The notes under the pieces were generated by a model. It was given only the letters and a program-made list of their open reading frames with translations. It was not told the DNA's origin and did no database searches. The position numbers and the translations under genes are program-made. A stretch of 49,113 nt of DNA from Syntrophaceae bacterium (GTDB lineage: Bacteria; Desulfobacterota; Syntrophia; Syntrophales; UBA2185), in the NCBI GenBank assembly GCA_003142295.1, contig PLLV01000090.1, positions 6,458 to 55,570 of the forward strand, given 5' to 3'. Numbering within the stretch: position 1 is the stretch's first letter; each line of letters starts with the position of its first letter. Shown here piece by piece: positions 1,103-29,352 of the stretch.

Positions 1103-1645
1103 TTATGTAACATGCTGATTTTGCTTTAAAAAATAGGTTTGCGTAGGATATATCAAATGACGCCTGCTGGATGATGCCTTGCGTGTTGTGCATTTGCTGC
1201 GGTCCAGATTCCGCAAACCGATTGAATCGAAAAGCCAGATTCGCTTGCTCGAGATCTTACGAACAATCGTCCAGTGGTCATGCAGACCACCCAAGCTGAA
1301 AAGAATGGCTCTCTTTCCCCCGTTTGCACGTTTCTCGTGAAGAAACCTTGTCATTTCTGTCCAGAACTCACTGATCCCCACATCTGTCTGCTTTTGGAAA
1401 GGAATTGCTCGGTTTATTTTTTCTCCGATAATATCCTTGAATATGCTCCCCATGACCGTTATGCTGATCCCCTGCGCCAGCGTTACAGCCAGACTCTTAT
1501 TCTCTTCAAGGTAGCTGATAATCTGTGTGAACAGTTCCTGCGATTCCTCGTTATTAAGTCCCCTGATGACGCGCATGGCATTTACAATACTGTATATGCC
1601 GCAAAGCGAATCGAGAGCTCCCTGTTCATAAGGTTTAAGTTTCAT
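1103..1645 (-). CDS. Hypothetical protein with a papain-fold (Josephin/C39-like) cysteine protease motif set
   Basis: EQGALDSLCGIYSIVN (Q8, C15), HWTIVRK (H124), WLFDS (D140); GGAG SD upstream. Confidence 0.65.
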   Translation of the reverse strand: MKLKPYEQGALDSLCGIYSIVNAMRVIRGLNNEESQELFTQIISYLEENKSLAVTLAQGISITVMGSIFKDIIGEKINRAIPFQKQTDVGISEFWTEMTRFLHEKRANGGKRAILFSLGGLHDHWTIVRKISSKRIWLFDSIGLRNLDRSKCTTRKASSSRRHLIYPTQTYFLKQNQHVT

Positions 1646-2008
1646 CGGTCACTCCTGGGAGGGTTGCTAAAAGAATTCTCCAATGCGGGATAATATACGA
1701 TGGTATTCTTTCACATTGCTCCGCACTTGAAAAGAAATCTTTTAGATTTTTTTGAAGGGTGATTATTGTCTGATAATTGTTGTATAATTACAATGATATG
1801 CAACAGGAAGATGGCTGCAAGTTATGTGGGGAATGTACCCTGTTCCTGAGGAAACCTGACGAAGTCCCGGTCTGAAAACCCGCAGATGGCCGGCATGCGG
1901 AAAGATAGTCTTATGGATTGGATCTTATAAAAAATGCAAAATGCGGGACTGAGTTCATTCGGTCCGTATCGTCTGCAGTTTACAGGCAGGCTCCTTCTTT
2001 GAAATATT

Positions 2009-4150
2009 TCATTGAACATGGAATTTAAACAGATCCATATTATACCTGGCTAAGTGGTATCTAATATTTTCGACTAATGGCGCCAGTATATTTATATAAT
2101 CGTCGGTCCATGATGCACTTCCGTTCAAGCCGTCATCATTTCCCAGCCTCACCCAACCGCGGTTCACCAATGGTTGGAGGCGTGCGGGGTTCCTTGCAAG
2201 GGCGACACACCAGGAGGCATTCTGGTAATATTTCAGCTTGTCTCTTGTTGCCGGTACATTTATGGCGCCATACAGGTTCAGCCCCGCAGATGTGGATTTG
2301 ATCACGGGTCTGAGTTCATAGTAGCGGTTAGAGACGTGAAAGAGGATCACCCCATCTTCCGCCAGCCTACTGAGGTATATTTCCATGGCTTCCCGTGTCA
2401 GCAGGTGGGTCGGGATACCATCACCGGTAAAAGCATCCATGTGGATTATGTCATAATCATGACCGGCGCTTTCTGACTTTTGCATTGAGAGGCGGCCGTC
2501 ACCGACAATAACGCGAACTTTGACCTTGCAGTCATCAAGATACGTAAACCACTGCCGGGCGATCTTTTCATTTTCAGGGTCTATTTCATAATAGGTGATG
2601 CGGTCGGCCTTTTTTGCGTACGCGGCGACGGCGCCCGAACCGAGCCCCAGTACAGCGATTCTCCTCGGGGTGTTAGTTGTTTGATAGACGTCGGCAATTC
2701 CTCCCCCCAGATAGAAGTAAGAAATCGGTGTCTGCCGCATGTCCGGATCGAGCAGCTGGGCTCCGTGCAGAGTCCTGCCATGAAGCAGTTTTCTCAGCCC
2801 TCCCGGTAGTCCTTCGACGGACGGCTCGTCCTTAATGCGGTACGTTCCGTAAAAATTCCGATGGCGGAATTTAATTGGCTCTTGCCATGATGCCCAAGAC
2901 TCCATGCAGATGACCGTGAGCATAATGACCATGATCAGGATACGGCTGCCAGCGGCCAGTATGGGAGTGCCGGGCCTGTAGGGGACAAAGGACTTGTCAC
3001 AGCACCACCAGAAGGAACAACCTAATAATAGGAGCAAGATAGGATACTCAAACAGTCCCTTAAACATATAAGGGGCGATTAGACTGACGAGGACGCCGCC
3101 TATCCAGCCCCCCAAGGCGATAGTGAGATAGAAATTGGTCAGAAGGCCGGGGCGCGGTCGACACTCGTAGAGCGTGCCGTGGGCAACCAAACAAATCATA
3201 AAGAAGACAGACAGATGTCCGATGATGGCAAGCCAATGTGAAGGCCCCCACAGATAAAGTATGAATGTGATGAGCAGGATTTCCGGCCATAATATTTTCA
3301 GAAACCGGGGGACGCCACCCCTGTTCGAGAAGGTTACGATGAAGCTGCCTAAGTAAAGGGCTAAAGGCATGACCCAGGTCAATGGGAAAGAGCCAACTTC
3401 CAGAGCAATGAAATTAGTTACGGCCAGAAGGAATGCAGAAGGGAGGCTGCTCAGCAGCAGCCACCTGGCATAGGTTAAAGACGTAACCTTGTCCTGTTCA
3501 ATTTCGCTCCCGACTTCTGAAGTCTGAATATTTCGCCCTTTATCCGGGCGGAGTTGAAACCAGGCCGCCACGCAAATTATCGCATAAACAATATACGTTC
3601 CCGTCCAGGAAAGGCTCTGTATTCTTAGACCCACCAGAGGTTCGGCTATGAACGTGTAACCCATTAATGCAATAAGAGACCCTGCATTTGAAGCCGCATA
3701 CAGCGGATATGGCTCACGGTGCTCTCCGAGCGAAGATCGATAGAGCCATAACTGGGCGACGACCGCCGTTGTCGAAAGGACAATGAAGGGCAGTGCCACA
3801 TGCATAAACAATATGCCGAGAATGTTGAGGAGTGGCGCGTGGGCATCGGGTTGGGCATTGATATTCAATGGCAGATTTATCAGGGGAAGGGCAAGCAGAA
3901 GCAAATGCCAGCCCCCCATTTTTTTTGCACAGAGATGCGCATACAGATACCCGATGAGGAGCATGGCTTGATAGAACATGAGGCACGTAAGCCAGACATG
4001 GGCCGCACCCCCGAAATAAGGTGTCAGCAGTCGACCTACAAGGGGCTCCATCCCGAAAAGGAGAAGGGCGCCGGAAAAAACCATACTCGTAAGTACTTTC
4101 ATAGCCAGTCTCTGGCCCTTTGCGCCCGCTGTTGCGCTGATTTTTTCCAT
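2009..4150 (-). CDS. Fused multi-pass membrane / spermidine synthase-like SAM-dependent transferase
   Basis: About a dozen hydrophobic helices, then RNFYG, LHGRTLHGAQ, VLGLGSG, YEIDP, GDGR, DIIHMDAFTGDGIPTHLLTREA, WTDDY. Confidence 0.9.
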   Translation of the reverse strand: MEKISATAGAKGQRLAMKVLTSMVFSGALLLFGMEPLVGRLLTPYFGGAAHVWLTCLMFYQAMLLIGYLYAHLCAKKMGGWHLLLLALPLINLPLNINAQPDAHAPLLNILGILFMHVALPFIVLSTTAVVAQLWLYRSSLGEHREPYPLYAASNAGSLIALMGYTFIAEPLVGLRIQSLSWTGTYIVYAIICVAAWFQLRPDKGRNIQTSEVGSEIEQDKVTSLTYARWLLLSSLPSAFLLAVTNFIALEVGSFPLTWVMPLALYLGSFIVTFSNRGGVPRFLKILWPEILLITFILYLWGPSHWLAIIGHLSVFFMICLVAHGTLYECRPRPGLLTNFYLTIALGGWIGGVLVSLIAPYMFKGLFEYPILLLLLGCSFWWCCDKSFVPYRPGTPILAAGSRILIMVIMLTVICMESWASWQEPIKFRHRNFYGTYRIKDEPSVEGLPGGLRKLLHGRTLHGAQLLDPDMRQTPISYFYLGGGIADVYQTTNTPRRIAVLGLGSGAVAAYAKKADRITYYEIDPENEKIARQWFTYLDDCKVKVRVIVGDGRLSMQKSESAGHDYDIIHMDAFTGDGIPTHLLTREAMEIYLSRLAEDGVILFHVSNRYYELRPVIKSTSAGLNLYGAINVPATRDKLKYYQNASWCVALARNPARLQPLVNRGWVRLGNDDGLNGSASWTDDYINILAPLVENIRYHLARYNMDLFKFHVQ

Positions 4151-5698: not shown

Positions 5699-5721
5699 CC
5701 AGGCATAATCCTGCCAATTTT

Positions 5722-5758
5722 CGTGAAGCTCCCCGCCAGCGGGACGGGGAGCTTCGCG
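5722..5758. terminator. GC-rich hairpin between convergent genes (bidirectional terminator or REP-like palindrome)
   Basis: cgtgaagctccccg / cggggagcttcgcg inverted repeat; no clear U tract. Confidence 0.5.
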
Positions 5759-5932
5759 GCCGGGAAAATATCATTAAATTGCATACCTTCACCTGGCCTT
5801 CAGGAGGGCCTGACAGGGTGTGCTGCCTGTCGAGGGTCGACACCTGCAGAGCAACATTTCCTGATGAGCAGGTGTCATCTGTATAACAAAACATGCCCGG
5901 AACAGAATGCAAAATAGAGAAGCGGAATTTTT

Positions 5933-18462: not shown

Positions 18463-20310
18463 TTACGTCTTCTGCGGGAGCGTAAAATAAAAGGTCGCTC
18501 CTTCGTTCACTTTGCCTTCCGCCCAGACGCGGCCTCCGTGCCGCTGCACGATGCGCTCGACCGTTGCCAGACCCACGCCCGTGCCCTCGAACTCGTCGGG
18601 CTTGTGAAGGCGCTGGAAAATGCCGAACAGCTTATCGTAGTACTCCATCTCAAAACCTACGCCGTTGTCCCTGACGTAATACACATTCTCGTTTCCCTCA
18701 GCATAGCCGCCCGTTTCAATAAGCGCCGGATCACGGTACTTCGTGAATTTGACGGCGTTGGAAAGCAGGTTGGCATAGACCTGTTTAATGAGTGTCCTGT
18801 CACCGTATGAGACAGGCACATCCTGGACAGTCAGTTTCATGTTCCTTTCCGGGTTGATGGTTTCAAGCTCTTTCCACACCTCCCTGATGACGGCGTCCAT
18901 CTCCAGCTGCGACGTAGATAAATGTTTTTTGACCACGCGCGATAATGTCAATATATCGTCGATGAGCTGGCCCATCATCTGTGCATTTGATCTTATGACG
19001 TTGAACTTGCGCATCGTCTCTTCGTCAAACTTGTCCCCCTCTTTTTTCAGGATCATGCGTGCATAGCCGTCGATGGCGCGAAGCGGCGCCCGCAGGTCGT
19101 GGGAGACGGAGTAGCTGAAGCTCTCCAGTTCCTTGTTTGCCGCTTCGAGTTCAGTGGTGCGCTCTTTAAGGGCATCCTCCGCCCGCTTGCGCTCGGTGAA
19201 ATCCGTGAAAATGACGGCGAACTGGCGGGGCGCGGGACAGTAGGCGAACACCTCGTAATGCCGGTTGAGGGCCGATGAATAGTTCTCGAAGTGCACCGGC
19301 TCGCCCGTGAGGGCGACCTTGCCGTAGATATCTACCCAGTAAGGGTCATTATTGGGCAGAATATCGCACACGGTTCTGCCGACAACCTCCTCCCGCTTCA
19401 GTCCGGTCAACTCTTCAAAGGCCGGATTGATATCCAGAAAACGATAGTCACAGGGAACGCCTTTATCATTGCAGATGATCTCGTGCAGTGCGAAGCCCTC
19501 CGTCATGCTGTTAAATAATGAACGGTAACGTTCCTCGCTCTTGCGCAGCACCTCCTCGGCCCTTTCGCGGGCGAGAATCTGCTTTTCCCAACCCGTTTTA
19601 GCTATCACTATCCCTGCGATGCCGATTATCCAGAAGAAAAGGTGGCCCAGCCACATTCTCGTGATAAGCGGTCTTTCAATGGCCCGGAGAGGCTCCAATT
19701 GTACAGAAACGCTTATTCCTCCCCTGATGTCTCCCTCCTTGTATCCCTGCGAAGCATGGCATTTAAGACAGGCTTTTTCCGCGATAAAGGGACGCATGAG
19801 GCGTATGTATTCTTCATCTCCTATTTTCGCAACGGAGCTGACTTCTTTAATGCCCTTCTCAAAGGACTTTAGAGCGGCGGCCTCCCACTGATCAGGAATA
19901 TTCTCCGGACGAATGGGATTGAGGCTGGTGATATGCCCCCGGCTGCCATGGATATCCACCGCCATTTCGTTTACCTGCCGGGCCATATATGCAGGATTGA
20001 CAAGAGTGAGAGACCGTCCGGAAGAGGTAGTAACATCGCGGTTTGGGACCTTGAGGTATGGATTGGGAGGTGTGTGCTCCGATGCGGGTACGTAAACGCC
20101 TCCCTGCTTCGCCGCCCATTTACGGTACATGACATCATTTTCAAAAGTAATCTGCGCGGTGTTCCGGGCAATTTTGATAATTTTCTCTCTCTGCTCAAAC
20201 AGATTCCACAGTAGGGAAACGACAACGCATCCCGTCCATAATAATATGAGGAGCCAGGAATAGCGCTTTAAACGGTCAGAGAGCTTTCCTGTTCTTTCTC
20301 CATTCATCAT
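18463..20310 (-). CDS. Membrane sensor histidine kinase with periplasmic c-heme motif (DUF3365-like) and PAS domain
   Basis: Two TM helices flanking a domain with CLKCH; PAS domain; SVSHDLRAPL, NLLSNAVKFT, DNGVGF, GTGVGL. Confidence 0.93.
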   Translation of the reverse strand: MMNGERTGKLSDRLKRYSWLLILLWTGCVVVSLLWNLFEQREKIIKIARNTAQITFENDVMYRKWAAKQGGVYVPASEHTPPNPYLKVPNRDVTTSSGRSLTLVNPAYMARQVNEMAVDIHGSRGHITSLNPIRPENIPDQWEAAALKSFEKGIKEVSSVAKIGDEEYIRLMRPFIAEKACLKCHASQGYKEGDIRGGISVSVQLEPLRAIERPLITRMWLGHLFFWIIGIAGIVIAKTGWEKQILARERAEEVLRKSEERYRSLFNSMTEGFALHEIICNDKGVPCDYRFLDINPAFEELTGLKREEVVGRTVCDILPNNDPYWVDIYGKVALTGEPVHFENYSSALNRHYEVFAYCPAPRQFAVIFTDFTERKRAEDALKERTTELEAANKELESFSYSVSHDLRAPLRAIDGYARMILKKEGDKFDEETMRKFNVIRSNAQMMGQLIDDILTLSRVVKKHLSTSQLEMDAVIREVWKELETINPERNMKLTVQDVPVSYGDRTLIKQVYANLLSNAVKFTKYRDPALIETGGYAEGNENVYYVRDNGVGFEMEYYDKLFGIFQRLHKPDEFEGTGVGLATVERIVQRHGGRVWAEGKVNEGATFYFTLPQKT

Positions 20311-20751: not shown

Positions 20752-20941
20752 GTTTGGCGATGCAAATCAGGGCAGGGAAACGGGCAGTTGCGTGGAGATG
20801 CGCCTATAGTCTTGCTGATGAATGTTTCATCACGGGGAGAGAGGTTGTTTCCGCATAATCGCAGTTTCATCGCGATATCTTTCAGACCAGGGGGAAAATC
20901 GGCCTTGTCAGCGACTGCAATATCTGGTACTTGCAGCCAAT

Positions 20942-22294
20942 ATGAAGGAAATACTGAGCGTCACAGAGTTAAATGAAAATATCAAGATTCTCCTGGAGGC
21001 GAGCTTCGATACACTCTGGGTGGAAGGGGAGGTATCCAATTTGCGACGGCCTGCATCGGGCCATATATACTTTACCCTCAAGGATGAAAAGAGTCAGATC
21101 AGGGCCGTCATCTTCCGGGCTTTGCCCATGCAACGGCAGTCTCCATGGCCCAGATCGGCAAAGTTCGATCTTGAAGAAGGGATGAGCGTCGTCTGTTGCG
21201 GAAGGGTGAGTGTCTATCATCCGCGAGGCGAATACCAATTGATCGTGGATGTGGTGGAACCAAAGGGCATTGGCGCCCTCCAGAAGGCCTTTGAACAGCT
21301 CAAAGCCCGCCTGCTGGCAGAGGGCCTTTTTGATCCTGCTCACAAAAAACCCATCCCTTTTCTCCCCCGGAGGATCGGGGTAATCACCTCTCCTACAGGG
21401 GCGGTTATCAGGGATATTTTGAATATCACGAGGCGGCGGTTTCCTTCCGTGGATATTCTTGTTGCTCCCGTAAGGGTGCAAGGCATGGAGGCGCCCCCGG
21501 AAATCATAAAGGCCATCACCGATATGCAAGCGGTGGGGAATATTGATGTCATTATCATAGCCAGGGGAGGGGGATCGCTCGAGGACCTGGCGCCTTTCAA
21601 CGATGAAGGGGTGGCGAGAGAGATTTATCGTTCCCGGATTCCAATAATCTCCGCTGTCGGGCATGAGATTGATTTTACTATCGCTGACTTTGTGGCGGAC
21701 CTCAGGGCCCCGACTCCTTCGGCGGCGGCGGAACTTGTTGTTCCCGTGAGAAGGGAACTTATGAGTTCAATAGAGGCCCTGCTTTCGAGACTGATCAATC
21801 ACGAGCGTCGCCTGATAGTCAGGATGGGTGAACAGGTGCGCCTGCTGCGAGAGCGGCTGAAGGATCCCAAGAGAAGGATTGATGATCTTCGCATGCTCGT
21901 CGATGACCGTCTGGAGAGGCTTAAAAAGGGCCTTGACCACAAGCGGGCCGGGGAGAGACCTAAACTGCTTAATCTTGAACTTCGCCTGGACCATGCAAAT
22001 CCCCTTTTGAAGATCCGGGATCATCGGTTTATCCTTGAAAATTTTAGAAAGAATGTGATAGCCGGGTGGCATGATGTGGCGGAGCGCCTCAAGGCGCAGG
22101 TGGGAACAAACCTCGCTGTGCTGGACACGTTAAGCCCTCTCGCTGTCCTGGGAAGGGGCTACAGTATTGTGAAGAAGCTTCCTGAAGGTCTTATCGTGAA
22201 GGAAGCGGCATCGGTTGCTGTGGGCGGCAGTGTGGACGTCAAGGTTTCGTCGGGTAGCTTTCAGGCGAAAGTAACGGATGTCAATCAGGAGTAA
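20942..22294 (+). CDS. xseA: Exodeoxyribonuclease VII large subunit
   Basis: LSVTELN, WVEGEVSN, SGHIYFTLKD, ITSPTGAVIRD, RGGGSLEDL, SAVGHEIDFT, RAPTPS. Confidence 0.97.
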   Translation: MKEILSVTELNENIKILLEASFDTLWVEGEVSNLRRPASGHIYFTLKDEKSQIRAVIFRALPMQRQSPWPRSAKFDLEEGMSVVCCGRVSVYHPRGEYQLIVDVVEPKGIGALQKAFEQLKARLLAEGLFDPAHKKPIPFLPRRIGVITSPTGAVIRDILNITRRRFPSVDILVAPVRVQGMEAPPEIIKAITDMQAVGNIDVIIIARGGGSLEDLAPFNDEGVAREIYRSRIPIISAVGHEIDFTIADFVADLRAPTPSAAAELVVPVRRELMSSIEALLSRLINHERRLIVRMGEQVRLLRERLKDPKRRIDDLRMLVDDRLERLKKGLDHKRAGERPKLLNLELRLDHANPLLKIRDHRFILENFRKNVIAGWHDVAERLKAQVGTNLAVLDTLSPLAVLGRGYSIVKKLPEGLIVKEAASVAVGGSVDVKVSSGSFQAKVTDVNQE

Positions 22295-22298
22295 GAAC

Positions 22299-22538
22299 AT
22301 GGCAAAGGAAAAATTCGAAGAAGCGCTGGGGCGATTGGAAGACATAGTAAAGAAAATGGAGGCAGGGGACATGACCCTCGAAGAATCCCTCAAGGCTTTT
22401 GAGGAGGGGATTAAGCTTGCCCGTCTATGTTCACGGAAGCTGGACGAGGCGGAGCGACGGGTGGAAATCTTGCTTAAGCAGGAAGAGGAGCTGGTCATCA
22501 GGCCGTTTAAGGTGGAAGAGAATGAGTCCGAATCTTAA
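22299..22538 (+). CDS. xseB: Exodeoxyribonuclease VII small subunit
   Basis: FEEALGRLEDIV.KME.G..TLEESL..FEEG. Confidence 0.96.
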   Translation: MAKEKFEEALGRLEDIVKKMEAGDMTLEESLKAFEEGIKLARLCSRKLDEAERRVEILLKQEEELVIRPFKVEENESES

Positions 22539-23430
22539 TGTGCCACTCGGCACATATTTGGATGCCAGGAAGAAGATAATCGATGAGGCCCTTGAGAGAT
22601 ACATACCCGGAGAGGACAACTATCCACCTGTAATTTTCAAAGCCCTCCATTACAGCCTGTTTGCAGGCGGGAAAAGAATCAGGCCCATCTTATGCCTGGC
22701 CTCGGCGGAGGCATTGGGCGGCAATATCGAATCGATTCTTCCTGTGGCCTGCGCTTTAGAGCTTATCCATACATATTCTCTTATCCATGACGACCTTCCC
22801 GCCATGGACGACGATGACTACAGGAGGGGAAGACTTACAAGCCACAAGGTTTTCGGTGAAAATATGGCCATTCTCGCCGGCGACGCCCTCTTGACGGAGG
22901 CGTTTCATCTGATGTCGGACAGAGGCCTGACGGATAAGATCGCGCCGGAAAAATTGATTTCCGTGATCCACGACATTGCCGGGGCGGCAGGATACTTCGG
23001 CATGGTAGGAGGTCAGGTAGTTGATGTCCAGTCGGAGGGAGAAGCGGTTGACACCGAAGTCCTGAACTTTATCCACACACGTAAAACGGGAGCAATGATT
23101 ACTGCCGCTGTGAAGGCAGGGGCCGTATTATCAAATGCCGGTGAAGTTGAGCTCAATGCCCTTACATCATACGGGCGACATGTAGGCCTTGCATTTCAGA
23201 TAGCCGACGATATCCTTAACGTCGAGGGGGACCAAAAATTAATGGGAAAAGGTACGGGGAGCGACACCAAACGGGGCAAGGTAACTTACCCTGCCCTCGT
23301 GGGTATGGACGCGTCCCGGAAAAAGGCGGGAGAGCTTGTAGAAGGTGCACTCTCGGCGATAAAGAACTTTGATCACAGGGCAGAACCACTAAGGATGATT
23401 GCCGCATATATCATAGAGAGAAAAGCGTAA
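22522..23430 (+). CDS. ispA: Farnesyl/geranylgeranyl diphosphate synthase
   Basis: GGKRIRP, YSLIHDDLPAMDDDDYRRG, GMVGGQ, KTG, FQIADDIL; overlaps the xseB end. Confidence 0.95.
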   Translation: MSPNLNVPLGTYLDARKKIIDEALERYIPGEDNYPPVIFKALHYSLFAGGKRIRPILCLASAEALGGNIESILPVACALELIHTYSLIHDDLPAMDDDDYRRGRLTSHKVFGENMAILAGDALLTEAFHLMSDRGLTDKIAPEKLISVIHDIAGAAGYFGMVGGQVVDVQSEGEAVDTEVLNFIHTRKTGAMITAAVKAGAVLSNAGEVELNALTSYGRHVGLAFQIADDILNVEGDQKLMGKGTGSDTKRGKVTYPALVGMDASRKKAGELVEGALSAIKNFDHRAEPLRMIAAYIIERKA

Positions 23431-23440
23431 GGGAAAAATA

Positions 23441-25339
23441 ATGAGTGGAGAAGACAAGAGCAGTATCCTTTCTGCAGTCAATTTTCCTGAAGATATCAGG
23501 AGGCTCGATCTTGCCCAGTTGAACAGACTTGCCGGAGAGATAAGGGGAAAGATTATCGACGTCGTCTCCAGAAATGGCGGCCATCTTGCTTCATCTCTGG
23601 GGACGGTTGAATTGACGCTTGCTATTCACTACGTATTTAATACACCCAGGGATAAAGTCGTCTGGGACGTGGGACATCAGGCCTATGCCCATAAGATCAT
23701 CACAGGTCGCAAGAACCTGTTTCACACCTTAAGGACGAAGGGCGGAATAAGCGGTTTCCCCAGGAGAGAGGAGAGTCTGTATGATGTCTTCAACACGGGG
23801 CACAGTAGCACTTCCATATCTGCCGCGATAGGTATGGCCGAAGCAAGGTGCCTTAACGGGGGAGACTTCAAAATCCTTGCCGTCATCGGCGATGGTTCCA
23901 TATCGGCGGGGATGGCCTTTGAAGCCCTGAATTGGGCGGGAGACCGCAACAAGAATCTCATCATCATATTAAATGACAATGAGCTGTGCATCTCACCCAA
24001 TGTGGGGGCCATGTCCTCCTATCTTAATCGCATCATGACGGGTCACACCGTCACAAGATTCAAGACGGAGCTTAAGAACTTTCTGAAGTCTATTCCCTCC
24101 ATCGGGGAACAGATGGTGAAGTTTTCTAAACAGGTGGAGGAATCCCTGAAAGGTCTCGTCCTTCCCGGCGTCTTGTTTGAGGAGCTGGGGTTCACCTATG
24201 TAGGGCCCCTGGAAGGGCATCGCCTCGATAATCTCATCAAGAACCTGAAGAACGTGAGAGAATTGGAGGGCCCCGTGCTCGTCCACGTCATTACAAAAAA
24301 AGGACAGGGCTATAAATTCGCCGAAGATGATCCGGCAAAGTTCCACGGCATTGCCCCATTCAAGATCGATACAGGCGAGCCTGTTGATGACGGCGCTCCG
24401 CCTTTGTCTTACACAAAAATGTTTGGCAGGACCGTTATAAAACTCGCCCGCGACAATTCCCGCATTGTTGCCGTGACAGCCGCCATGAGCGAAGGCACGG
24501 GCCTCGATGAGTTTGCCAGGGAATATCCGGGGCGTTTCTATGACGTAGGCATGGCTGAACAGCACGGCGTGACCTTTGCCGCCGGACTCGCGACGGAGGG
24601 CCTGATCCCGATTGTGGCGATATATTCGACATTCCTGCAAAGGGCCTATGACCAGATTCTCCATGACGTCTGTCTCCAGAAACTTCCGGTGGTACTCGCC
24701 CTCGACCGGGGCGGCTTCGTGGGAGCGGATGGACCCACTCACCACGGACTCTTTGACTTTTCCTATCTCCGTTCCATTCCGAATATAATCGTGATGGCGC
24801 CCAAGGACGAAAATGAACTCCAGCATATGCTTAAGACAGCGGTTGAGTGCGGGGGACCTGTTTCAATAAGATATCCCCGCGGCAGGGGAGTTGGTGTGCC
24901 CATCGATGATATTCCCGTGTCTCTTGCAGTTGGGAAAGGCGAAATTGTCTATGGCGCCGAAAACGCGAACCTTGCCATTGTAGCAATTGGTTCTACTGTT
25001 TATCCTGCCGTTGCTGCCGCAGCGAAACTGAAGGCTGAAGGAATCAATGCTAGGGTCATCAATGCCCGTTTCGTCAAGCCCCTTGATGAAGGGCTCCTTT
25101 GTGATACCGCTAATTCCATAAAGAGGATAATCACTGTCGAAGAAAATGTCCTCATGGGCGGGTTCGGAAGCGCCGTTCTGGAATTGTTTGAAGAAAAGGG
25201 TATTCATGATGTCATCGTGAAGAGGCTCGGCATCAAGGATAAATTTGTCGAACATGCCTCGCAGAAGGAATTGAGAGGGATGTACGGCATTGACGAGGAG
25301 GGCATCATTGCAGCGGTGCAGTCTGTGATGGAGCCGTAA
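23441..25339 (+). CDS. dxs: 1-deoxy-D-xylulose-5-phosphate synthase
   Basis: GGHLASSLG, WDVGHQAY, GHSSTS, GDGS...NDN, AEQH, YSTFLQRAYDQ, DGPTHHG. Confidence 0.98.
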   Translation: MSGEDKSSILSAVNFPEDIRRLDLAQLNRLAGEIRGKIIDVVSRNGGHLASSLGTVELTLAIHYVFNTPRDKVVWDVGHQAYAHKIITGRKNLFHTLRTKGGISGFPRREESLYDVFNTGHSSTSISAAIGMAEARCLNGGDFKILAVIGDGSISAGMAFEALNWAGDRNKNLIIILNDNELCISPNVGAMSSYLNRIMTGHTVTRFKTELKNFLKSIPSIGEQMVKFSKQVEESLKGLVLPGVLFEELGFTYVGPLEGHRLDNLIKNLKNVRELEGPVLVHVITKKGQGYKFAEDDPAKFHGIAPFKIDTGEPVDDGAPPLSYTKMFGRTVIKLARDNSRIVAVTAAMSEGTGLDEFAREYPGRFYDVGMAEQHGVTFAAGLATEGLIPIVAIYSTFLQRAYDQILHDVCLQKLPVVLALDRGGFVGADGPTHHGLFDFSYLRSIPNIIVMAPKDENELQHMLKTAVECGGPVSIRYPRGRGVGVPIDDIPVSLAVGKGEIVYGAENANLAIVAIGSTVYPAVAAAAKLKAEGINARVINARFVKPLDEGLLCDTANSIKRIITVEENVLMGGFGSAVLELFEEKGIHDVIVKRLGIKDKFVEHASQKELRGMYGIDEEGIIAAVQSVMEP

Positions 25340-25351
25340 ACTTTTCACCGC

Positions 25352-26098
25352 ATGAGCAAGAAAATCAAAAAAGTCAGATTGGACCTGCTGCTGGTGGATA
25401 GAGGTACATGTCAGACCCGCGAGAGAGCCAGGGCGCTGATTATGTCAGGCGCCGTGCTTGTGGGAGAAACCAAGATGGACAAGGCGGGTACCCTCGTTTC
25501 CCCGGATGCAGAAATCAGGATAGAAGGAGAAGATAATCCATACGTCAGCAGGGGAGGATTGAAATTAAAAGGCGCTCTTACGGCGTTCGATATCAATGTG
25601 AGAGACCTCGTTGCCCTTGATGTAGGTGCTTCCACCGGCGGATTTACCGACTGCCTTCTTCAGGAAGGGGCGCGAAAGGTCTATGCCATTGATGTTGGTT
25701 ATGGTCAGTTGGCGTGGAAGCTGAGGAAGGATGAACGGGTAGTCAACCTCGAAAGGACAAACATAAGATATTTCGAAGGTTCGGAAATAAAGGACGGCAT
25801 TGATTTGGCCACGATAGATGCGTCCTTTATTTCGCTCAGACTTGTCATCCCTGCCGTGCTCAGGCTGGCGAAGAAGAATGACGCCATCATGCTTGCCCTT
25901 ATTAAACCTCAGTTTGAGGCAGGGCGCGATGAGGTTGAAAAGCACGGCGTCATCCGAAATCCCGAAGTTCATGACAAAGTAATAGAGGGAATAAAGGAGT
26001 TCTCCGCAGAATTAGGGCTGTCAGTTATGGGCGTCTGCGAATCCCCACTCATAGGGCCCAAAGGCAACAGGGAGTTTTTTATTTATCTGAAAACTTGA
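25352..26098 (+). CDS. tlyA: TlyA family rRNA 2'-O-methyltransferase
   Basis: S4 domain RLDLLL, YVSRGGLKL, DVGASTGGFTD, DVGYGQL, DASFISL, KPQFE, GNREF. Confidence 0.95.
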   Translation: MSKKIKKVRLDLLLVDRGTCQTRERARALIMSGAVLVGETKMDKAGTLVSPDAEIRIEGEDNPYVSRGGLKLKGALTAFDINVRDLVALDVGASTGGFTDCLLQEGARKVYAIDVGYGQLAWKLRKDERVVNLERTNIRYFEGSEIKDGIDLATIDASFISLRLVIPAVLRLAKKNDAIMLALIKPQFEAGRDEVEKHGVIRNPEVHDKVIEGIKEFSAELGLSVMGVCESPLIGPKGNREFFIYLKT

Positions 26099-26196
26099 GA
26101 GAGTTATTAATGAGAGACATCTGAAAATTGTCTTCAGAAGTGCTCAAAATCTTTTTTCGACCGTGGTGTTAGTGAAGTAAAGGTCTTGCAAAACAA

Positions 26197-27942
26197 ATGG
26201 GTGTTAAACTGGCCAAGACAGCGGGATTTTGTATGGGCGTGAGAAGGGCCGTCGATCTCGTTCTTGATATTGCCCAGCGCAAAGGAAAAGAAGATATCTA
26301 TACGTATGGCCCCCTGATTCACAATCCCCAGACTGTTGAACTCCTGAGGACAAGGGGAATTATTCCGGTAAGTGATATCGACGATATTGATGCATCTGAA
26401 AAAAGCTCCACGATCATAATCAGGGCCCACGGCATATCCCCGGAGGAGAGAAATAAGATCGGGGAGAAAGGAATCAAAATCGTTGATGCCACCTGTCCTA
26501 AAGTAGCTCATGTTCAGGCTATTATCAAGAAGCACGCATCATCGAACTATGCGGTTCTAATCATCGGCGACAGGGAACACCCGGAGGTTAATGGTCTTCT
26601 GGGGTATGCCTATGGCAAAGGCTTCGTTATCGGCAGCGCGGAAGAGGTTGATAATCTCCCGCTCCTGGATAAGGTGTGTGTAGTTGCTCAGACCACGAAG
26701 AGTACGGACGAGTTTATTGACATTGTGGAGAAGATCAAGACAAGGTTTCCTGACTCTGTGATTTTCGATACTATTTGTGATTCCACGGAAAAGAGGCAGT
26801 CGGAGGTTAAGGCTCTGGCCGCAGAAATGGATGCCGTATTTATCGTCGGCGGCAGGAACAGTGCAAATACAAAAAGGCTGGTCAGGATTTCACAGCTTGA
26901 GTGTAAGCCGACGTTTCACATCGAGACTGCAGATGAATTAAACGACATTCCCTCAAGCCAGTATGAGAAGATCGGTATTTCCGCAGGCGCATCGACGCCC
27001 AACTGGATCATTAACAGGGTCTTTGACGCTGTTACAAGCCATCAGGATGAGAAACAGAAGCAGGTAAAGAGGCTATTCAACTTCTGGGTATTCGCAGTCA
27101 AGACGGAGATCTATTCTGCTATTGGAGCAGGATGTCTGTCTTTCTCAAGCATGCTCTTGCAGAGACTCCCTGTGAATATATTGAATATTCTGACAACGTC
27201 CCTTTATGTATATGCCATGCATACACTCAACCGGCTCATCAACAGAAAAACGAGCACCATCATCGGATCATTCAGGGAAGAATCTTATCTCAAACATGAA
27301 AAGGCTTATGTGTCGGCGGCAATAGTGTCTCTGGTTCTGGCCCTGACAATTTCCTTCATTGCAGGCTTGAATGCCTTCATATTGCTTTTCTTGATTTCCA
27401 TTTTTGGCGTGCTTTATAATACGAAAATACTGCCGGGGAACCTGCGTTTCAAGAGTCTTAAAGACCTGCCGGGTTCCAAGAACATTTTCATGGCTATGGC
27501 CTGGGCAGCTGTTGTGGCAGTGCTGCCGCAGTTAGAAATTAGTCTCTCCGTTACCGCCGGTATGCTTGTGGCTTTTCTCTTTACCTTCGGCATTGTCTTC
27601 GTCCGCTCTGCCATATCTGATATCCTGGATATCCAGAGCGATAGGCTCATCGGTCGGGAGACGATACCTGTTCTGATAGGCAAGAAAACCACCCAGATTC
27701 TGTTGCAGGGAATACTCGTTTTGCTGGTCATTTTGCTCAGCGTATCCAATACCTTAGGGTGGACTCCCTCACTGAGTTTTACCCTCTTAGTGTGCATATT
27801 TTTTATGTGGATTTATTTCAGGCTTTATGTTAGAAGGGCGTCATTTTCCGGCGTTGTTCAGGAGGGTATTCTCGAGACCAGCTATATCATAGCTGGCATA
27901 AGTTCCCTGGTCTGGCTTTGTCTGGCAAGGTATTTGGGCTGA
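26197..27942 (+). CDS. ispH: HMBPP reductase IspH fused to a C-terminal UbiA-like multi-pass prenyltransferase domain
   Basis: N-terminal ~280 aa: GFCMGV, IHN, RAHG, DATCP, HPEV, QTT, TICDST, SAN, SAGASTP. C-terminal ~290 aa: about 8 hydrophobic helices, LKDLPGSKN, DILDIQSDRLIGRETIPVLIG. Confidence 0.93.
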   Translation: MGVKLAKTAGFCMGVRRAVDLVLDIAQRKGKEDIYTYGPLIHNPQTVELLRTRGIIPVSDIDDIDASEKSSTIIIRAHGISPEERNKIGEKGIKIVDATCPKVAHVQAIIKKHASSNYAVLIIGDREHPEVNGLLGYAYGKGFVIGSAEEVDNLPLLDKVCVVAQTTKSTDEFIDIVEKIKTRFPDSVIFDTICDSTEKRQSEVKALAAEMDAVFIVGGRNSANTKRLVRISQLECKPTFHIETADELNDIPSSQYEKIGISAGASTPNWIINRVFDAVTSHQDEKQKQVKRLFNFWVFAVKTEIYSAIGAGCLSFSSMLLQRLPVNILNILTTSLYVYAMHTLNRLINRKTSTIIGSFREESYLKHEKAYVSAAIVSLVLALTISFIAGLNAFILLFLISIFGVLYNTKILPGNLRFKSLKDLPGSKNIFMAMAWAAVVAVLPQLEISLSVTAGMLVAFLFTFGIVFVRSAISDILDIQSDRLIGRETIPVLIGKKTTQILLQGILVLLVILLSVSNTLGWTPSLSFTLLVCIFFMWIYFRLYVRRASFSGVVQEGILETSYIIAGISSLVWLCLARYLG

Positions 27943-27965
27943 ATAATAACGCGGGGGCGGCAATT

Positions 27966-28556
27966 GTGACGAGAAAGACATTTCTTTTTCCTTTAATGAT
28001 GCTTCTGCTATCTGCGCTTGTCGGCTGCGGAGGAATCCGCTATTCCCATGTCGCCCCGGAAGCAAAGGATTTCCATCCCAAAAGAGTCGGTGTGCTGTCC
28101 GCTGATGTGGGGACATATGAAGAGGCAAGAGGGGTAATTGACCAGATCATCGCAGGTGTGCTCGTTGATACAAAGTGGTTTACTGATGTTGTTGCTGCGG
28201 ATAAAATGAATAACCGGATTAAGTCCAGTGAGGAACTTCAGAAGGTGTTTGTCGATTATATCTCCAAGCTCAGAGCAGTCAACTTTTCCGATCCTGATCT
28301 GAGTCGCAAGCTCGGTGAAATGATAAAAGTCGATGCCTTCCTGTTGGTCAACGTTGATTACTGGAATTACACTAAGGAAAACGATGACAAGGTAGCCAAA
28401 GTAGTCATGGGCGTCAAAATGATCGATGCAGCTTCCGGCAAAATAATGTGGAATGCAGGGCATCATGAAGCAGAGGCCTATATACTTATGAAACCTGCCC
28501 TTCCTGATGTGGCAAAGAGCCTCGTCAAAAAGATGATAAAAGAGATGCCCCATTAA
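27966..28556 (+). CDS. Putative lipoprotein
   Basis: GTG start; basic residues, hydrophobic stretch and lipobox LVGC; MIDAASGKIMW motif seen in CsgG/LpoB-like lipoproteins. Confidence 0.75.
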   Translation: MTRKTFLFPLMMLLLSALVGCGGIRYSHVAPEAKDFHPKRVGVLSADVGTYEEARGVIDQIIAGVLVDTKWFTDVVAADKMNNRIKSSEELQKVFVDYISKLRAVNFSDPDLSRKLGEMIKVDAFLLVNVDYWNYTKENDDKVAKVVMGVKMIDAASGKIMWNAGHHEAEAYILMKPALPDVAKSLVKKMIKEMPH

Positions 28557-28646
28557 TCCGAGGGCACCTATAAAGAGACCAGGGGCAAACTTTTTTGATC
28601 GTCTACAGCTTGCCCTTGATGCTGTTAATGAATGGAGGTTATGTAT

Positions 28647-28871
28647 ATGAAAGAAGAAGTACGCAGTGCAATAGAGCGTATCCGGCCCAATCTGCAGGCG
28701 GACGGAGGTGACGTTGAGCTTGTTGACGTGAATGATGAAGGTATTGTCAAAGTGAAACTTCTGGGAGCCTGCCGCGGCTGTCCCATGTCGCAAATGACCC
28801 TGAAAATGGGGATACAGAAATATTTGCAGAAGGAAGTTCCTGGAGTAAAAGACGTCGTTTCCGTGACGTAA
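28647..28871 (+). CDS. NifU/NfuA-type Fe-S scaffold (Nfu domain)
   Basis: IRPNLQADGGDVELV, LLGACRGCPMSQMTLKMGI; GGAGG SD. Confidence 0.95.
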   Translation: MKEEVRSAIERIRPNLQADGGDVELVDVNDEGIVKVKLLGACRGCPMSQMTLKMGIQKYLQKEVPGVKDVVSVT

Positions 28872-28921
28872 ATTTTTCAGTAAGGGTCTTTATCTAAAAA
28901 ACCCATAGAGTAAAAAAATAA

Positions 28922-29113
<192 letters not shown>

Positions 29114-29136
29114 AGTCAAGACCAGCATATGAGGTC

Positions 29137-29192
29137 AAAAGGGGAAGCCATTCGCCTTGGTCAAGGTCGGGTGCTTTCCCCTCGTTTGTTTT
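29137..29192 (+). terminator. Probable terminator after the ferredoxin gene
   Basis: aggggaagc...gctttcccct stem followed by tttgttttt. Confidence 0.6.
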
Positions 29193-29224
29193 TACTGATG
29201 CCCTTCCATTGAACGACTTCCACT

Positions 29225-29306
29225 TGTCATTTCGACTGAGAGGAGAAATTTTGCAACCTGTGCATAGCAAGCAAAATTCCTCGTCGCTTTTCTTTTTGGA
29301 ATGACA
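29225..29306. repeat. GTCATT...AATGAC palindromic element
   Basis: tgtcatttcg...gagaaattttgc / gcaaaattcctc...ggaatgaca. Confidence 0.6.
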
Positions 29307-29352
29307 TAAAATACATATCTCTATTAAAAAGTCTCCGGTTAAGATTGTCACT

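What the first reader, a model, noticed from the sequence alone, without database searches (positions are those of the whole stretch)
26197..28556. IspH fused to a UbiA-type membrane prenyltransferase domain beside the isoprenoid operon
Seen: one uninterrupted 581-aa ORF. The first ~280 aa are a complete IspH with all three [4Fe-4S] Cys, the His residues, HPEV and SAN. The rest is about 8 TM helices with the UbiA-superfamily second acidic motif (DILDIQSD..GRETIP), while the first motif is degenerate (HTLNRLIN where NDxxD is expected). It follows xseA-xseB-ispA-dxs-tlyA and precedes an unknown lipoprotein. Known: IspH makes IPP/DMAPP and is normally soluble (RpsA-type fusions exist); UbiA proteins transfer prenyl groups in the membrane. 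Inference: either a channelling unit that feeds DMAPP or prenyl-PP into an uncharacterised membrane prenylation, or a catalytically dead UbiA fold that tethers or regulates IspH, e.g. by sensing prenyl-PP. The lipoprotein could be a partner. This is my best candidate for an undescribed system here, although the fusion may already exist unstudied in related genomes.
Basis: partly seen in the sequence, partly recalled or inferred. Interest (0 to 1): 0.8.

Follow-up and report, generated by a model that had tools for sequence, protein, structure and literature searches.

The report
Known IspH-UbiA membrane fusion protein
This gene joins the last enzyme of bacterial isoprenoid-precursor synthesis to a membrane domain of the prenyltransferase type; the fusion is real and common in this group of anaerobes, but it was already described in 2015 and the job of its membrane half is still unknown.

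Summary
Window 26197..27942 (+) is one 581-aa ORF. Residues 3-279 match LytB/IspH and 328-547 match UbiA, both above Pfam cut-offs. An AlphaFold model (pLDDT 93) hits solved IspH and solved UbiA-fold structures.

It is not an assembly error. Contigs from two other runs bridge the junction without gaps. 163 of 401 sampled genomes of the phylum carry the C-terminal domain, almost always in ~580-aa frames.

It is not undescribed. Rao et al. 2015 (PMC4746011) published IspH-UbiA "Rosetta stone" proteins and left the function open.

- The fusion is the only IspH in 155 of the 163 genomes.
- UbiA motif 2, Tyr407 and Lys428 are near-invariant. Motif 1 is only NxxxD family-wide, and the window's protein has no carboxylate there.
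- Both halves are under purifying selection.
- One sister lineage cleanly lost the domain, and another family carries a more degenerate version.
- The lipoprotein link is only order-level synteny, and the lipoprotein survives loss of the domain.

Best reading: a membrane-held housekeeping IspH with a ligand-binding, probably still catalytic, non-canonical UbiA domain. A sensor role is a close rival.

The parts
26197..27942 (+). ispH-ubiA fusion gene, 581 aa
   Evidence: Single ORF. Pfam LYTB + UbiA. AF2 pLDDT 93, pTM 0.88. Fused homologues in 163 of 401 genomes.
26197..27051 (+). IspH domain, residues 1-285, with Cys12/100/194 for the [4Fe-4S] cluster and H42, H128, E130, S222, N224, S266
   Evidence: Pfam and TIGRFAM above cut-off. 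Invariant columns in A1. Foldseek 3dnf (40% identity, TM 0.81) and 3ke8/3szu (TM 0.86).
27052..27108 (+). Basic linker with an amphipathic helix (residues 286-304)
   Evidence: DSSP helix 288-302. The W270-A311 distance is 40-41 residues in 75 of 87 fusions, range 38-44.
27109..27939 (+). UbiA-fold membrane domain, residues 305-581, 9 TM helices, N-terminus in the cytoplasm
   Evidence: Pfam UbiA 51.4 bits. Foldseek 7bpu, 4od4 (TM 0.73), 4tq4, 6m31, 8djk. K/R-rich loops 353-367, 408-426, 478-495, 545-551.
27220..27276 (+). Remnant of Asp-rich motif 1 at the end of TM2 (residues 342-360: H-T-L-N345-R-L-I-N349 ... R360), no carboxylate before E361
   Evidence: Sequence. Family consensus is N345-x-x-x-D349 ... 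N-[DE]-P-x-R. Position 349 is N in 75 and D in 36 of 112 close relatives.
27415..27480 (+). Y407 ... P425-G-S427-K428 segment (TM4 end and cytoplasmic loop 4-5)
   Evidence: Y407 78 of 79, S427 75 of 79, K428 73 of 79 plus 6 Arg. Matching to AfUbiA Y139 and K146 is inferred from position (PMC4106721).
27604..27681 (+). Asp-rich motif 2 and what follows it: R470 ... D475-I-L-D478-I-Q-S-D482-R-L-I-G486-R-E488-T-I-P491 ... G495
   Evidence: D482 79 of 79, R470 76, G486 77, E488 73, T489 71. Fully kept in the window's clade.
27966..28556 (+). Lipoprotein gene of unknown family (196 aa from GTG 27966, lipobox LVGC). A neighbour, not shown to be part of the system.
   Evidence: No family above threshold. 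Linkage only within the order. Kept beside a plain ispH in L162.
28632..28871 (+). Nfu-type (NifU-like) Fe-S carrier gene, 79 aa. Candidate helper of IspH (inference).
   Evidence: PF01106 E 1e-29. Conserved here in 48 of 52 Syntrophales loci.
28934..29113 (+). 2x[4Fe-4S] ferredoxin gene, 59 aa. Candidate electron donor of IspH (inference).
   Evidence: PF00037 E 3.5e-16, two stretches. Conserved here in 48 of 52 Syntrophales loci.
22399..26098 (+). Upstream isoprenoid cluster: ispA (22399..23430 as listed), dxs (23441..25339), tlyA (25352..26098), preceded by xseA/xseB (20822..22538)
   Evidence: Pfam polyprenyl_synt, DXP_synthase_N, FtsJ+S4, Exonuc_VII_L/S.

Best explanation
SHOWN.
- The gene encodes the cell's only IspH, and that IspH is catalytically complete.
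- It is fused through a linker of fixed length to a 9-TM UbiA-fold domain.
- The cytoplasmic loops of that domain lie on the same side of the membrane as IspH.
- The fusion is old, mostly vertically inherited in this phylum, and under purifying selection in both halves.

INFERRED.
- The membrane half keeps a working pocket for an allylic or prenyl diphosphate: N345, Y407, K428, R470, D475/D478/D482 and E488.
- It holds IspH at the membrane, where it takes up a diphosphate made from IspH's products.
- I commit to it still being a prenyltransferase of unknown acceptor, working with a reduced first motif (NxxxD in the family, NxxxN here).
- On this reading the protein makes C5 units and uses a prenyl donor in one place. 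The same pocket could also report prenyl-diphosphate levels to IspH.
- The lipoprotein is not part of it.
For: Identity and fold.

Sole IspH:
- One LYTB match in the window's own genome, which is 93% complete.
- By my hand comparison of the tables, 155 of 163 fusion-bearing genomes have exactly one LYTB match.

Spread:
- 163 of 401 genomes and 108 of 254 genera carry the domain.
- 143 of the 150 listed matches lie in frames of 560 aa or more.
- 78 of the 150 best 50%-identity cluster representatives are 550-640 aa.

Pocket residues are near-invariant at 30-40% identity:
- Y407 78 of 79, K428 73 of 79 plus 6 Arg, R470 76 of 79, D482 79 of 79, E488 73 of 79, N345 68 of 79.
- All are kept in the 112 close relatives.
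- In AfUbiA, the residues that I match to N345, D349 and K428 are needed for GPP binding, and the Tyr is conserved in 97% of the family (PMC4106721 passages).

First motif: the active enzyme UBIAD1 also has only NxxxD (N102TYYD; PMC9314443 passage).

Selection: dN/dS is 0.10-0.23 for the UbiA half and 0.08-0.18 for the IspH half among 8 close genomes that all carry N349.

Geometry: the linker length is fixed and the whole-chain pTM is 0.88. These suggest a set arrangement of the two halves.

Other UbiA proteins: two separate MenA-like UbiA proteins with full motifs exist in the genome, so this domain is not the menaquinone enzyme.
Against: - No carboxylate is left in motif 1 of this protein. 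Position 349, which I match to AfUbiA D72 (D72A abolishes GPP binding), is Asn.
- Position 349 switched between N and D at least 4-5 times among 112 relatives.
- The loop N-[DE]-P of the wider family is I-G-S in the whole clade.
- A sister family of the same order (L162) has a plain 284-aa ispH in the same gene order. Its genome is 100% complete and shows no copy of the domain at E <= 1e-10. Whatever the domain makes is therefore dispensable.
- Another family (code f36) keeps IspH fused to a homologous domain (hhalign probability 79.5%, E 1.5e-5). That domain has no counterpart of the Y407...PGSK428 segment and has Tyr in place of D478.
- No acceptor pathway gene is linked to the fusion across 19 loci of other families.
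- No product is known. The only experimental attempt in print failed to express the full-length protein (PMC4746011).
- The residue mapping to AfUbiA and UBIAD1 rests on motif pattern and helix position, not on an alignment. Profile and single-sequence searches found no solved chain at E <= 1.
Confidence: 0.42

Rival explanations
1. Sensor or regulator. The UbiA-fold half no longer transfers anything, or transfer is secondary. It binds a membrane prenyl diphosphate and, through the fixed linker and docked interface, tunes or stabilises IspH. This would be a covalent bacterial counterpart of UBIAD1, which binds HMG-CoA reductase and lets go when it binds GGpp.
For: - Pocket residues are conserved, while the one motif-1 carboxylate is dispensable in this clade.
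- The fusion persists in family f36 without the Y407...K428 segment, but with other invariant polar residues.
- The domain could be lost without loss of IspH.
- No linked acceptor genes were found.
- Linker length is fixed and pTM is 0.88.
- Precedent: UBIAD1 is a GGpp sensor bound to HMGCR (PMC9314443 passages). That complex (8djk) is among the fold matches.
Against: - There is no evidence of any kind that IspH is regulated by its products' derivatives.
- UBIAD1 is also an active enzyme, so sensing does not exclude catalysis.
- The UBIAD1-HMGCR contact is between transmembrane helices, whereas IspH is soluble.
Confidence: 0.3
2. Anchor only. The membrane half merely places IspH at the membrane, for example near its reductant or Fe-S supply. 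Its UbiA ancestry is a relic.
For: - The degenerate f36 version and the clean loss in one lineage show that canonical UbiA chemistry is not what keeps the fusion.
- Motif 1 is degraded.
- In the IspH-RPS1 fusions, the added domains are not needed for IspH activity (PMC4746011 abstract).
Against: - A mere anchor would not keep D482 in 79 of 79, nor Y407, K428, R470 and E488-T489, at 30-40% overall identity.
- It would not show dN/dS as low as the enzyme half.
- Even f36 keeps invariant polar residues in the cytoplasmic loops: E166, Q171, D173, R237, Q241, E246.
Confidence: 0.13
3. The fusion works with the downstream lipoprotein as a two-part membrane system.
For: - The two genes are adjacent, 24 nt apart if GTG 27966 is the start.
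- They are adjacent in 51 of 52 Syntrophales loci.
Against: - The whole 11-gene block is syntenic in that order, so adjacency carries no specific signal.
- No homologue was found beside the fusion in 17 loci (flank 1.5 kb) or 20 loci (about 7 kb each side) of other families.
- In L162 the lipoprotein gene directly follows a plain ispH that lacks the UbiA domain.
- A lipoprotein would sit on the periplasmic side, where the domain has only short loops.
Confidence: 0.04
4. Artefact: two genes joined by an assembly or sequencing error.
For: In two few-contig genomes of one genus (L140, L141), the two halves lie in different, overlapping frames.
Against: - Contigs of two other runs from two studies bridge the junction with 0 gaps.
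- 143 of the 150 listed matches are in single frames of 560 aa or more.
- The 120 best hits of the 733 in the protein collection all carry both Pfam domains.
- The AF2 model is confident over the junction.
- The split-looking cases are in assemblies of 89-91% completeness and look like frameshifts.
Confidence: 0.01

Closest known systems
IspH-UbiA 'Rosetta stone' fusions (Rao, O'Dowd, Li, Wang, Oldfield 2015, Chem Sci 6:6813, PMC4746011)
   Same: Same architecture: IspH at the N-terminus and a UbiA-like domain (their 'PT_UbiA_5') at the C-terminus, about 580 aa. Same group of anaerobic 'delta-proteobacteria'. A separate MenA/UbiA is present in the genome. Function unknown. Same two hypotheses.
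   Different: - They counted 47 sequences, 'all in sulfate-reducing bacteria', and state that two DXXXD repeats are present.
- Here the host is a Syntrophales MAG lineage (record titles).
- The window's clade has no DxxxD in motif 1.
- I could not see their supplementary list, so I cannot say whether Syntrophales were among the 47.
Stand-alone IspH/LytB (PDB 3dnf, 3ke8, 3szu, 4n7b)
   Same: Fold (TM 0.81-0.86), 30-40% identity, three cluster cysteines and the conserved His/Glu/Ser/Asn residues.
   Different: About 300 extra C-terminal residues form a membrane domain. The enzyme must therefore be membrane-bound.
UbiA-superfamily prenyltransferases with solved structures: AfUbiA (4tq3-6), ApUbiA (4od4/5), archaeal DGGGPS (7bpu, 6m31)
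   Same: - 9-TM fold (Foldseek E about 1e-5, TM up to 0.73).
- Motifs on cytoplasmic loops after TM2 and TM6.
- Second motif DxxDxxxD, plus a conserved Tyr and Lys.
   Different: - No sequence-level match to any solved chain, even with a profile.
- The first motif is NRxxN instead of NDxxDxxxD.
- All NCBIfam prenyltransferase equivalogs score far below cut-off, the best being NF010117 with 66 bits against 238.
- Donor and acceptor are unknown.
UBIAD1 bound to HMG-CoA reductase (PDB 8djk; PMC9314443)
   Same: A UbiA-fold protein physically joined to a key enzyme of isoprenoid-precursor synthesis. Its first motif is only NxxxD. It senses a prenyl diphosphate.
   Different: A non-covalent complex of eukaryotes in the mevalonate pathway, with contact between membrane helices. 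UBIAD1 is a proven enzyme. Here nothing is tested.
IspH-RPS1 fusions of Clostridia and relatives (same 2015 paper)
   Same: IspH at the N-terminus of a double-length protein in anaerobes. IspH activity is independent of the added part (abstract).
   Different: The partner is soluble S1 RNA-binding repeats, not a membrane domain. The best NCBIfam hit NF000907 covers only the IspH part here, scoring 321 bits against a cut-off of 624.

Membership tests
IspH/LytB (PF02401, TIGR00216) | Family model scored above the curated cut-off over its full length | tested here: met
   PF02401 313 bits (cut-off 24.5), profile positions 1-266 of 267. TIGR00216 293 bits (cut-off 188) and NF002187 286 bits (cut-off 276).
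IspH/LytB (PF02401, TIGR00216) | Three cysteines for the [4Fe-4S] cluster and the conserved His/Glu/Thr/Ser/Asn substrate residues | tested here: met
   C12, C100, C194, H42, H78, H128, E130, T167, S222, N224 and S266 are invariant or nearly so in 87 fusions. Their roles are known from E. coli IspH (recalled, not from a call).
IspH/LytB (PF02401, TIGR00216) | Trefoil IspH fold | tested here: met
   Foldseek ranks 1-10 are all IspH, TM (target) 0.73-0.86.
IspH/LytB (PF02401, TIGR00216) | HMBPP reductase activity | not testable with these tools
   Inferred from it being the only LYTB match in the genome.
UbiA prenyltransferase superfamily (PF01040) | Family model above the gathering score | tested here: met
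   51.4 bits against 34.2, residues 328-547, profile positions 23-235 of 250.
UbiA prenyltransferase superfamily (PF01040) | Nine-helix UbiA fold with both motifs on cytoplasmic loops | tested here: met
   Foldseek 7bpu, 4od4, 4tq4, 6m31 and 8djk at probability 1.00. Helices and K/R-rich loops.
UbiA prenyltransferase superfamily (PF01040) | First Asp-rich motif NDxxDxxxD (consensus as given in PMC4106721) | tested here: not met
   The window has N345-R-L-I-N349-R-K-T-S353. The family consensus is NRxxD. Note that the active member UBIAD1 also has only NxxxD.
UbiA prenyltransferase superfamily (PF01040) | Second Asp-rich motif DxxxD | tested here: met
   D478-I-Q-S-D482, with D475 before it. 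D482 is present in 79 of 79.
UbiA prenyltransferase superfamily (PF01040) | Near-universal Tyr at the end of TM4, and a basic residue that binds the diphosphate | tested here: inconclusive
   Y407 (78 of 79) and K428 (73 of 79) lie at the expected places. Equivalence to AfUbiA Y139 and K146 is by position only, because no residue-level alignment to a solved chain was obtained.
UbiA prenyltransferase superfamily (PF01040) | Mg2+-dependent prenyl transfer | not testable with these tools
   No assay exists. Published expression attempts failed.
Named prenyltransferase equivalogs (DGGGPS, MenA, ChlG, heme o synthase, NF010117) | Score above the NCBIfam equivalog cut-off | tested here: not met
   The best is NF010117 at 66 bits against 238. 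DGGGPS models score 20-23 bits against about 300.
Published IspH-UbiA fusion class (PMC4746011) | IspH N-terminal and PT_UbiA_5-type domain C-terminal in one polypeptide of an anaerobic 'delta-proteobacterium' | tested here: met
   The CDD label PT_UbiA_5 itself could not be checked with these tools.
Published IspH-UbiA fusion class (PMC4746011) | 'Two DXXXD repeats' as stated in the paper | tested here: not met
   There is only one DxxxD (478-482) in the window's C-terminal half. In relatives below 45% identity, D/E is at position 349 in 57 of 80.

The most novel reading that the evidence does not exclude
The UbiA-fold half is a prenyl-diphosphate sensor that throttles or stabilises the only IspH of the cell. 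This would be feedback control of the last MEP-pathway step from the membrane isoprenoid pool, and a covalent bacterial analogue of the UBIAD1-HMG-CoA reductase pair. The lineages that lost the domain (L162) or remodelled it (family f36) would be natural variants of that control.
Probability: 0.25. Interest if true: 0.75.

Novelty: new member of a known kind. Interest (0 to 1): 0.35.

Why it matters
- IspH is essential wherever the MEP pathway is the only route to isoprenoids, and it is a drug target.
- In at least two fifths of the sampled genomes of a large phylum of anaerobes, the only IspH is welded to a membrane domain whose function nobody has measured. The organisms include sulfate reducers and syntrophs of peat and sediments.
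- If the domain is an enzyme, there is an unknown prenylated membrane compound in these organisms.
- If it is a sensor, it would be the first known control of the MEP pathway at its last step.
  - the residues to mutate: N345, N/D349, Y407, K428, D478, D482;
  - a natural domain-loss lineage and a natural degenerate lineage for comparison;
  - a nearby ferredoxin and Nfu gene that may serve IspH.
- For the scan itself, this finding is a rediscovery, not a new system.

Tried and rejected
1. Stand-alone form of the domain. The 'shorter' search gave 91 hits, almost all pieces on contigs of 1-3 kb, many still named IspH. Short cluster representatives mostly begin inside the IspH C-terminus. No clear free-standing gene was found.
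2. Natural split genes. L140 and L141 show the halves in overlapping frames. I read these as frameshifts in 89-91% complete, few-contig assemblies, and they remain undecided.
3. Sequence link to solved UbiA structures. phmmer and a 52-sequence profile found nothing at E <= 1.
4. hhalign of the domain against the genome's own MenA-like protein gave probability 7% and a motif-1 register shifted by four residues. I rejected that register in favour of the N(0)...D(+4) pattern at the end of TM2.
5. PF04240 (Caroten_synth) as a partner. It lies near the fusion in 2 of 19 loci but was not found in the window's genome, which is 93% complete. Dropped.
6. Dus upstream (4 of 19), GT2 downstream (3 of 19) and ParAB upstream (3 of 19). 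The GT2s have only generic hits. No consistent partner emerged.
7. ESM Atlas returned only generic UbiA clusters. The control list for NF010117 names four genomes without saying which passes.
8. RNA evidence. Contigs of two metatranscriptome runs touch both halves. X18 lies at 90-99% likeness, and X19 has one 143-base piece with no differences. This is too little to claim transcription of the fused message.
9. Complex prediction, IspH half against UbiA half. There is no verdict.
10. AlphaFold of the f36 domain. The fold of that variant is therefore untested.
12. No Rfam family was found in 25900-29500 at E <= 0.1.
Full report
**1. What is there**

Window 26197..27942 (+) is a single 581-aa ORF.
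- Pfam places LytB/IspH on residues 3-279 (E 2e-93).
- Pfam places UbiA on residues 328-547 (E 1.2e-13, 51.4 bits, cut-off 34.2).
- TIGR00216 (IspH) scores 293 bits against a cut-off of 188.
- No named prenyltransferase equivalog comes near its cut-off. The best is NF010117, 66 bits against 238.

An AlphaFold2 model built on 87 aligned fusions has mean pLDDT 93.0 and pTM 0.88, with no segment under 50. Foldseek against the PDB gives two sets of matches:
- Ranks 1-10 are IspH (3dnf at 40% identity; 3ke8/3szu at TM 0.86).
- From rank 13 come UbiA-fold membrane enzymes: 7bpu and 6m31 (DGGGPS), 4od4/4od5 (ApUbiA, TM 0.73), 4tq3-6 (AfUbiA) and 8djk (UBIAD1 in complex with HMG-CoA reductase).

The model has nine membrane helices after an amphipathic linker helix. 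The loops rich in Lys/Arg are 353-367, 408-426, 478-495 and 545-551. These loops carry the motifs and lie on the side of IspH, the cytoplasm.

**2. Not an artefact**

- DNA contigs of two other runs from two studies cross the domain junction without gaps. X2 covers 26000-27421 and X3 covers 26763-28700.
- In the protein collection, 733 proteins match the C-terminal half at E <= 0.001. The 120 best listed all carry both Pfam domains.
- In a search of 1.84 billion cluster representatives, 474 clusters match at E <= 1e-10. Of the 150 listed, 78 are 550-640 aa long.
- Most shorter representatives start inside the IspH C-terminus, so they are pieces.

**3. Already in print**

[quoted passage not shown] I read the abstract, all passages on UbiA, and section 16.

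They report the following:
- They found 47 IspH-UbiA sequences, mainly in Desulfobacterales.
- They note the domain is CDD type PT_UbiA_5, of unknown function.
- They note a separate MenA/UbiA in those genomes.
- They state that two DXXXD repeats are present.
- They could not express full-length protein.
- They proposed either local supply of IPP/DMAPP to a UbiA-like transferase or a sensor role.

Searches for 'IspH-UbiA', 'PT_UbiA_5' and 'LytB + prenyltransferase + fused + Desulfo' found nothing further. The only other returns were a citation in a reference list and an unrelated paper. I could not see the paper's supplement.

*(a) Spread.* In an even sample of 401 genomes of the phylum, 163 genomes (108 of 254 genera) hold the domain at E <= 1e-10.
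- 143 of the 150 listed matches lie in frames of 560 aa or more.
- Families are mostly all-or-none, for example 12/12, 10/10 and 8/8 against 0/11, 0/11 and 0/9.
- The record titles of the closest 52 loci name Syntrophales, Syntrophaceae, Smithella and Smithellaceae MAGs.
- From recall, these are mostly syntrophs rather than sulfate reducers, which would be a small extension of the published range.

*(b) Sole IspH.*
- The window's genome (93% complete) has one LYTB match, which is this gene.
- I compared the tables by hand. 155 of the 163 fusion-bearing genomes have exactly one LYTB match.
- The exceptions are one genome with none, six with two and one with four. Several of these look fragmented.
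- The IspH half must therefore be the housekeeping enzyme.

*(c) Conservation.* Across 79 fusions of 30-40% identity to the window, the UbiA half keeps:
- N345 (68 of 79), G404, Y407 (78), P425, S427 and K428 (73, plus 6 Arg);
- W436, P444, R470 (76), D475 (64), D478 (59, plus 9 Glu) and D482 (79);
- G486, E488, T489, P491 and G495.

The first motif in the family is N345-R-x-x-D349 ... N356-[DE]-P-x-R360, not NDxxDxxxD.

In AfUbiA (PMC4106721, passages):
- Mg2+ is held by N68, D72, D198 and D202.
- N68A, D72A and K146A abolish GPP binding.
- The D198A and D202A changes are milder.
- A Tyr on TM4 is conserved in 97% of the family.

By pattern and helix position I map N345, D349, Y407, K428, D478 and D482 onto these residues. 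This mapping is inference. UBIAD1, an active enzyme, also has only N102-T-Y-Y-D (PMC9314443). The family-wide motif is therefore compatible with catalysis.

*(d) The window's clade.* This covers 112 proteins at 60% identity or more in the C-terminal half.
- The loop N-[DE]-P is I-[GS]-S in all of them.
- Position 349 is Asn in 75 and Asp in 36.
- It changed at least 4-5 times on a FastTree of these proteins.
- The window and its 12 closest relatives all have Asn, so no carboxylate is left in motif 1.
- Yet Y407, S427, K428, D482, G486, E488, T489 and P491 are kept in all 112. R470, D475 and D478 are kept in all but a few.
- Nei-Gojobori dN/dS among eight close genomes is 0.10-0.23 for the UbiA half and 0.08-0.18 for the IspH half.
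- The domain is under selection, not decaying.

*(e) Linker.* The distance from W270 to A311 is 40-41 residues in 75 of 87 fusions, range 38-44. Together with pTM 0.88, this suggests a fixed arrangement of the halves.

*(f) Natural variants.* On a quick IQ-TREE of 86 IspH domains (SH-aLRT only, no bootstrap), the labels fused/plain need only 3 changes against a shuffled mean of 31.

One plain IspH (L156, a family of the window's own order) nests inside the fused Syntrophales clade (99). Its locus L162 has the same gene order: xseA-xseB-ispA-dxs-tlyA-ispH-lipoprotein-nfu-fdx-tmk-holB-psp1-metG.
- There, ispH is a 284-aa gene directly followed by the lipoprotein gene.
- That genome is 100% complete and had no match to the domain at E <= 1e-10.
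- This is a clean secondary loss.

Another family (code f36, genomes of 0.9-2.3 Mb) has IspH fused to a 265-aa hydrophobic domain that Pfam does not recognise. It occurs in 31 of 41 genomes.
- Profile-profile comparison with the main family gives probability 79.5%, E 1.5e-5, over 218 columns in register.
- D475, Q480 and D482 correspond to E, Q and D. D478 corresponds to Tyr.
- The Y407...PGSK428 segment has no counterpart in two alignments.
- The variant has its own invariant motifs.
- Its IspH domains form a clade among the fused ones. Support for the clade is 100, and for its placement 84-92.
- These genomes were 'no match', so 163 of 401 is an underestimate.

**5. Surroundings**

Within Syntrophales the whole block is syntenic. 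The lipoprotein is present in 51 of 52 loci, tlyA in 49 and tmk in 48.

Outside the order the lipoprotein is not next to the fusion:
- 0 of 17 loci with 1.5-kb flanks;
- 0 of 20 loci with about 7 kb on each side.

In 19 of those 20 loci the neighbours differ from family to family:
- Dus upstream in 4;
- a GT2 downstream in 3;
- ParAB upstream in 3;
- tlyA, IspG and a polyprenyl synthase once each;
- PF04240 twice.

No acceptor pathway is linked. With the L162 case, the lipoprotein-partner idea loses its basis.

The lipoprotein probably starts at GTG 27966, with lipobox LVGC. It has only a sub-threshold likeness to GNA1162-like lipoproteins (E 0.012).

One is a NifU-like Nfu gene (28632..28871, PF01106 E 1e-29). 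The other is a 2x[4Fe-4S] ferredoxin gene (28934..29113).
- Both are conserved there in 48 of 52 Syntrophales loci and in L162.
- Nfu is absent near the fusion in 20 loci of other families, and ferredoxin gives only two weak hits several kb away.
- They are plausible helpers of IspH as cluster carrier and reductant. This is inference only.

The genome has two further UbiA proteins, MenA-like, with complete motifs.

**6. How it most likely works**

Shown:
- a membrane-bound, sole, complete IspH;
- a UbiA-fold partner domain with a conserved, selected set of polar residues on the cytoplasmic side;
- no dependence on the lipoprotein.

Inferred: the conserved residues form a diphosphate-binding pocket. 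A mere anchor would not keep them, so I put 'anchor only' at 0.13.

Whether the pocket transfers a prenyl group or only binds one is open.
- For catalysis: nearly all UbiA-family proteins are enzymes, and the family's NxxxD motif matches that of UBIAD1.
- Against catalysis: the lost carboxylate here, the f36 variant, the dispensability in L162, and the absence of any linked acceptor gene.
- I commit to a non-canonical, still active prenyltransferase of unknown acceptor at 0.42.
- I put the UBIAD1-like sensor/regulator at 0.30. The two are not exclusive.

**7. Verdict**

The kind of protein is already published, and the window's gene is one more member of it, from a clade with a further reduced first motif. 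Interest is modest (0.35): it is a rediscovery of an unsolved but known fusion.

Noticed in passing
window 28632..28871 (+) and 28934..29113 (+): Two small genes lie between the lipoprotein gene and tmk: a NifU-like Nfu Fe-S carrier (79 aa) and a 2x[4Fe-4S] ferredoxin (59 aa). Both are conserved at this place in 48 of 52 Syntrophales loci. They could supply the cluster and electrons to IspH (inference).
   Followed up: partly
L108:808-2442 (-), L109:302-1924 (+), loci L110-L139: In another family of the phylum (code f36), IspH is fused to a 265-aa membrane domain that Pfam misses. It occurs in 31 of 41 genomes and is a remote homologue of the UbiA-like domain (hhalign probability 79.5%). It lacks the Y407...PGSK segment and D478, and has its own invariant motifs. 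Its fold is not tested.
   Followed up: partly
L162:5830-6684 (-) and 5153-5836 (-): A sister family of the window's order keeps the whole gene order but has a plain 284-aa ispH directly followed by the lipoprotein gene. This is a clean loss of the UbiA-like domain in a 100% complete genome.
   Followed up: yes
L140 (627..2303 and 1489..2370, +), L141 (578..1477 and 1326..2321, +): In two few-contig genomes of one genus, the IspH and UbiA-like halves lie in overlapping different frames. This is either a frameshift error or a programmed or real split, and is not resolved.
   Followed up: no
window 27966..28556 (+): The lipoprotein more likely starts at GTG 27966 than at the listed TTG 27918. 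There is an RBS-like G-run upstream and the signal ends in LVGC. Its only family hint is a sub-threshold GNA1162-like match (E 0.012).
   Followed up: partly
L094, L097, L101, L105 (upstream); L094, L097, L104 (downstream): In several other families the fusion is preceded by a dihydrouridine synthase gene (4 of 19 loci) and followed on the same strand by a GT2 glycosyltransferase of about 275-290 aa (3 of 19 loci). The GT2s have only generic family hits.
   Followed up: partly
window 22399..23430 (+): The listed ispA ORF starts at a TTG inside xseB, and the Pfam match begins only at residue 78. The true start is probably further downstream.
   Followed up: no
window 18463..20310 (-): A histidine kinase with an N-terminal Tll0287-like domain and PAS domains lies divergently upstream of the xseA-isoprenoid cluster.
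   Followed up: no
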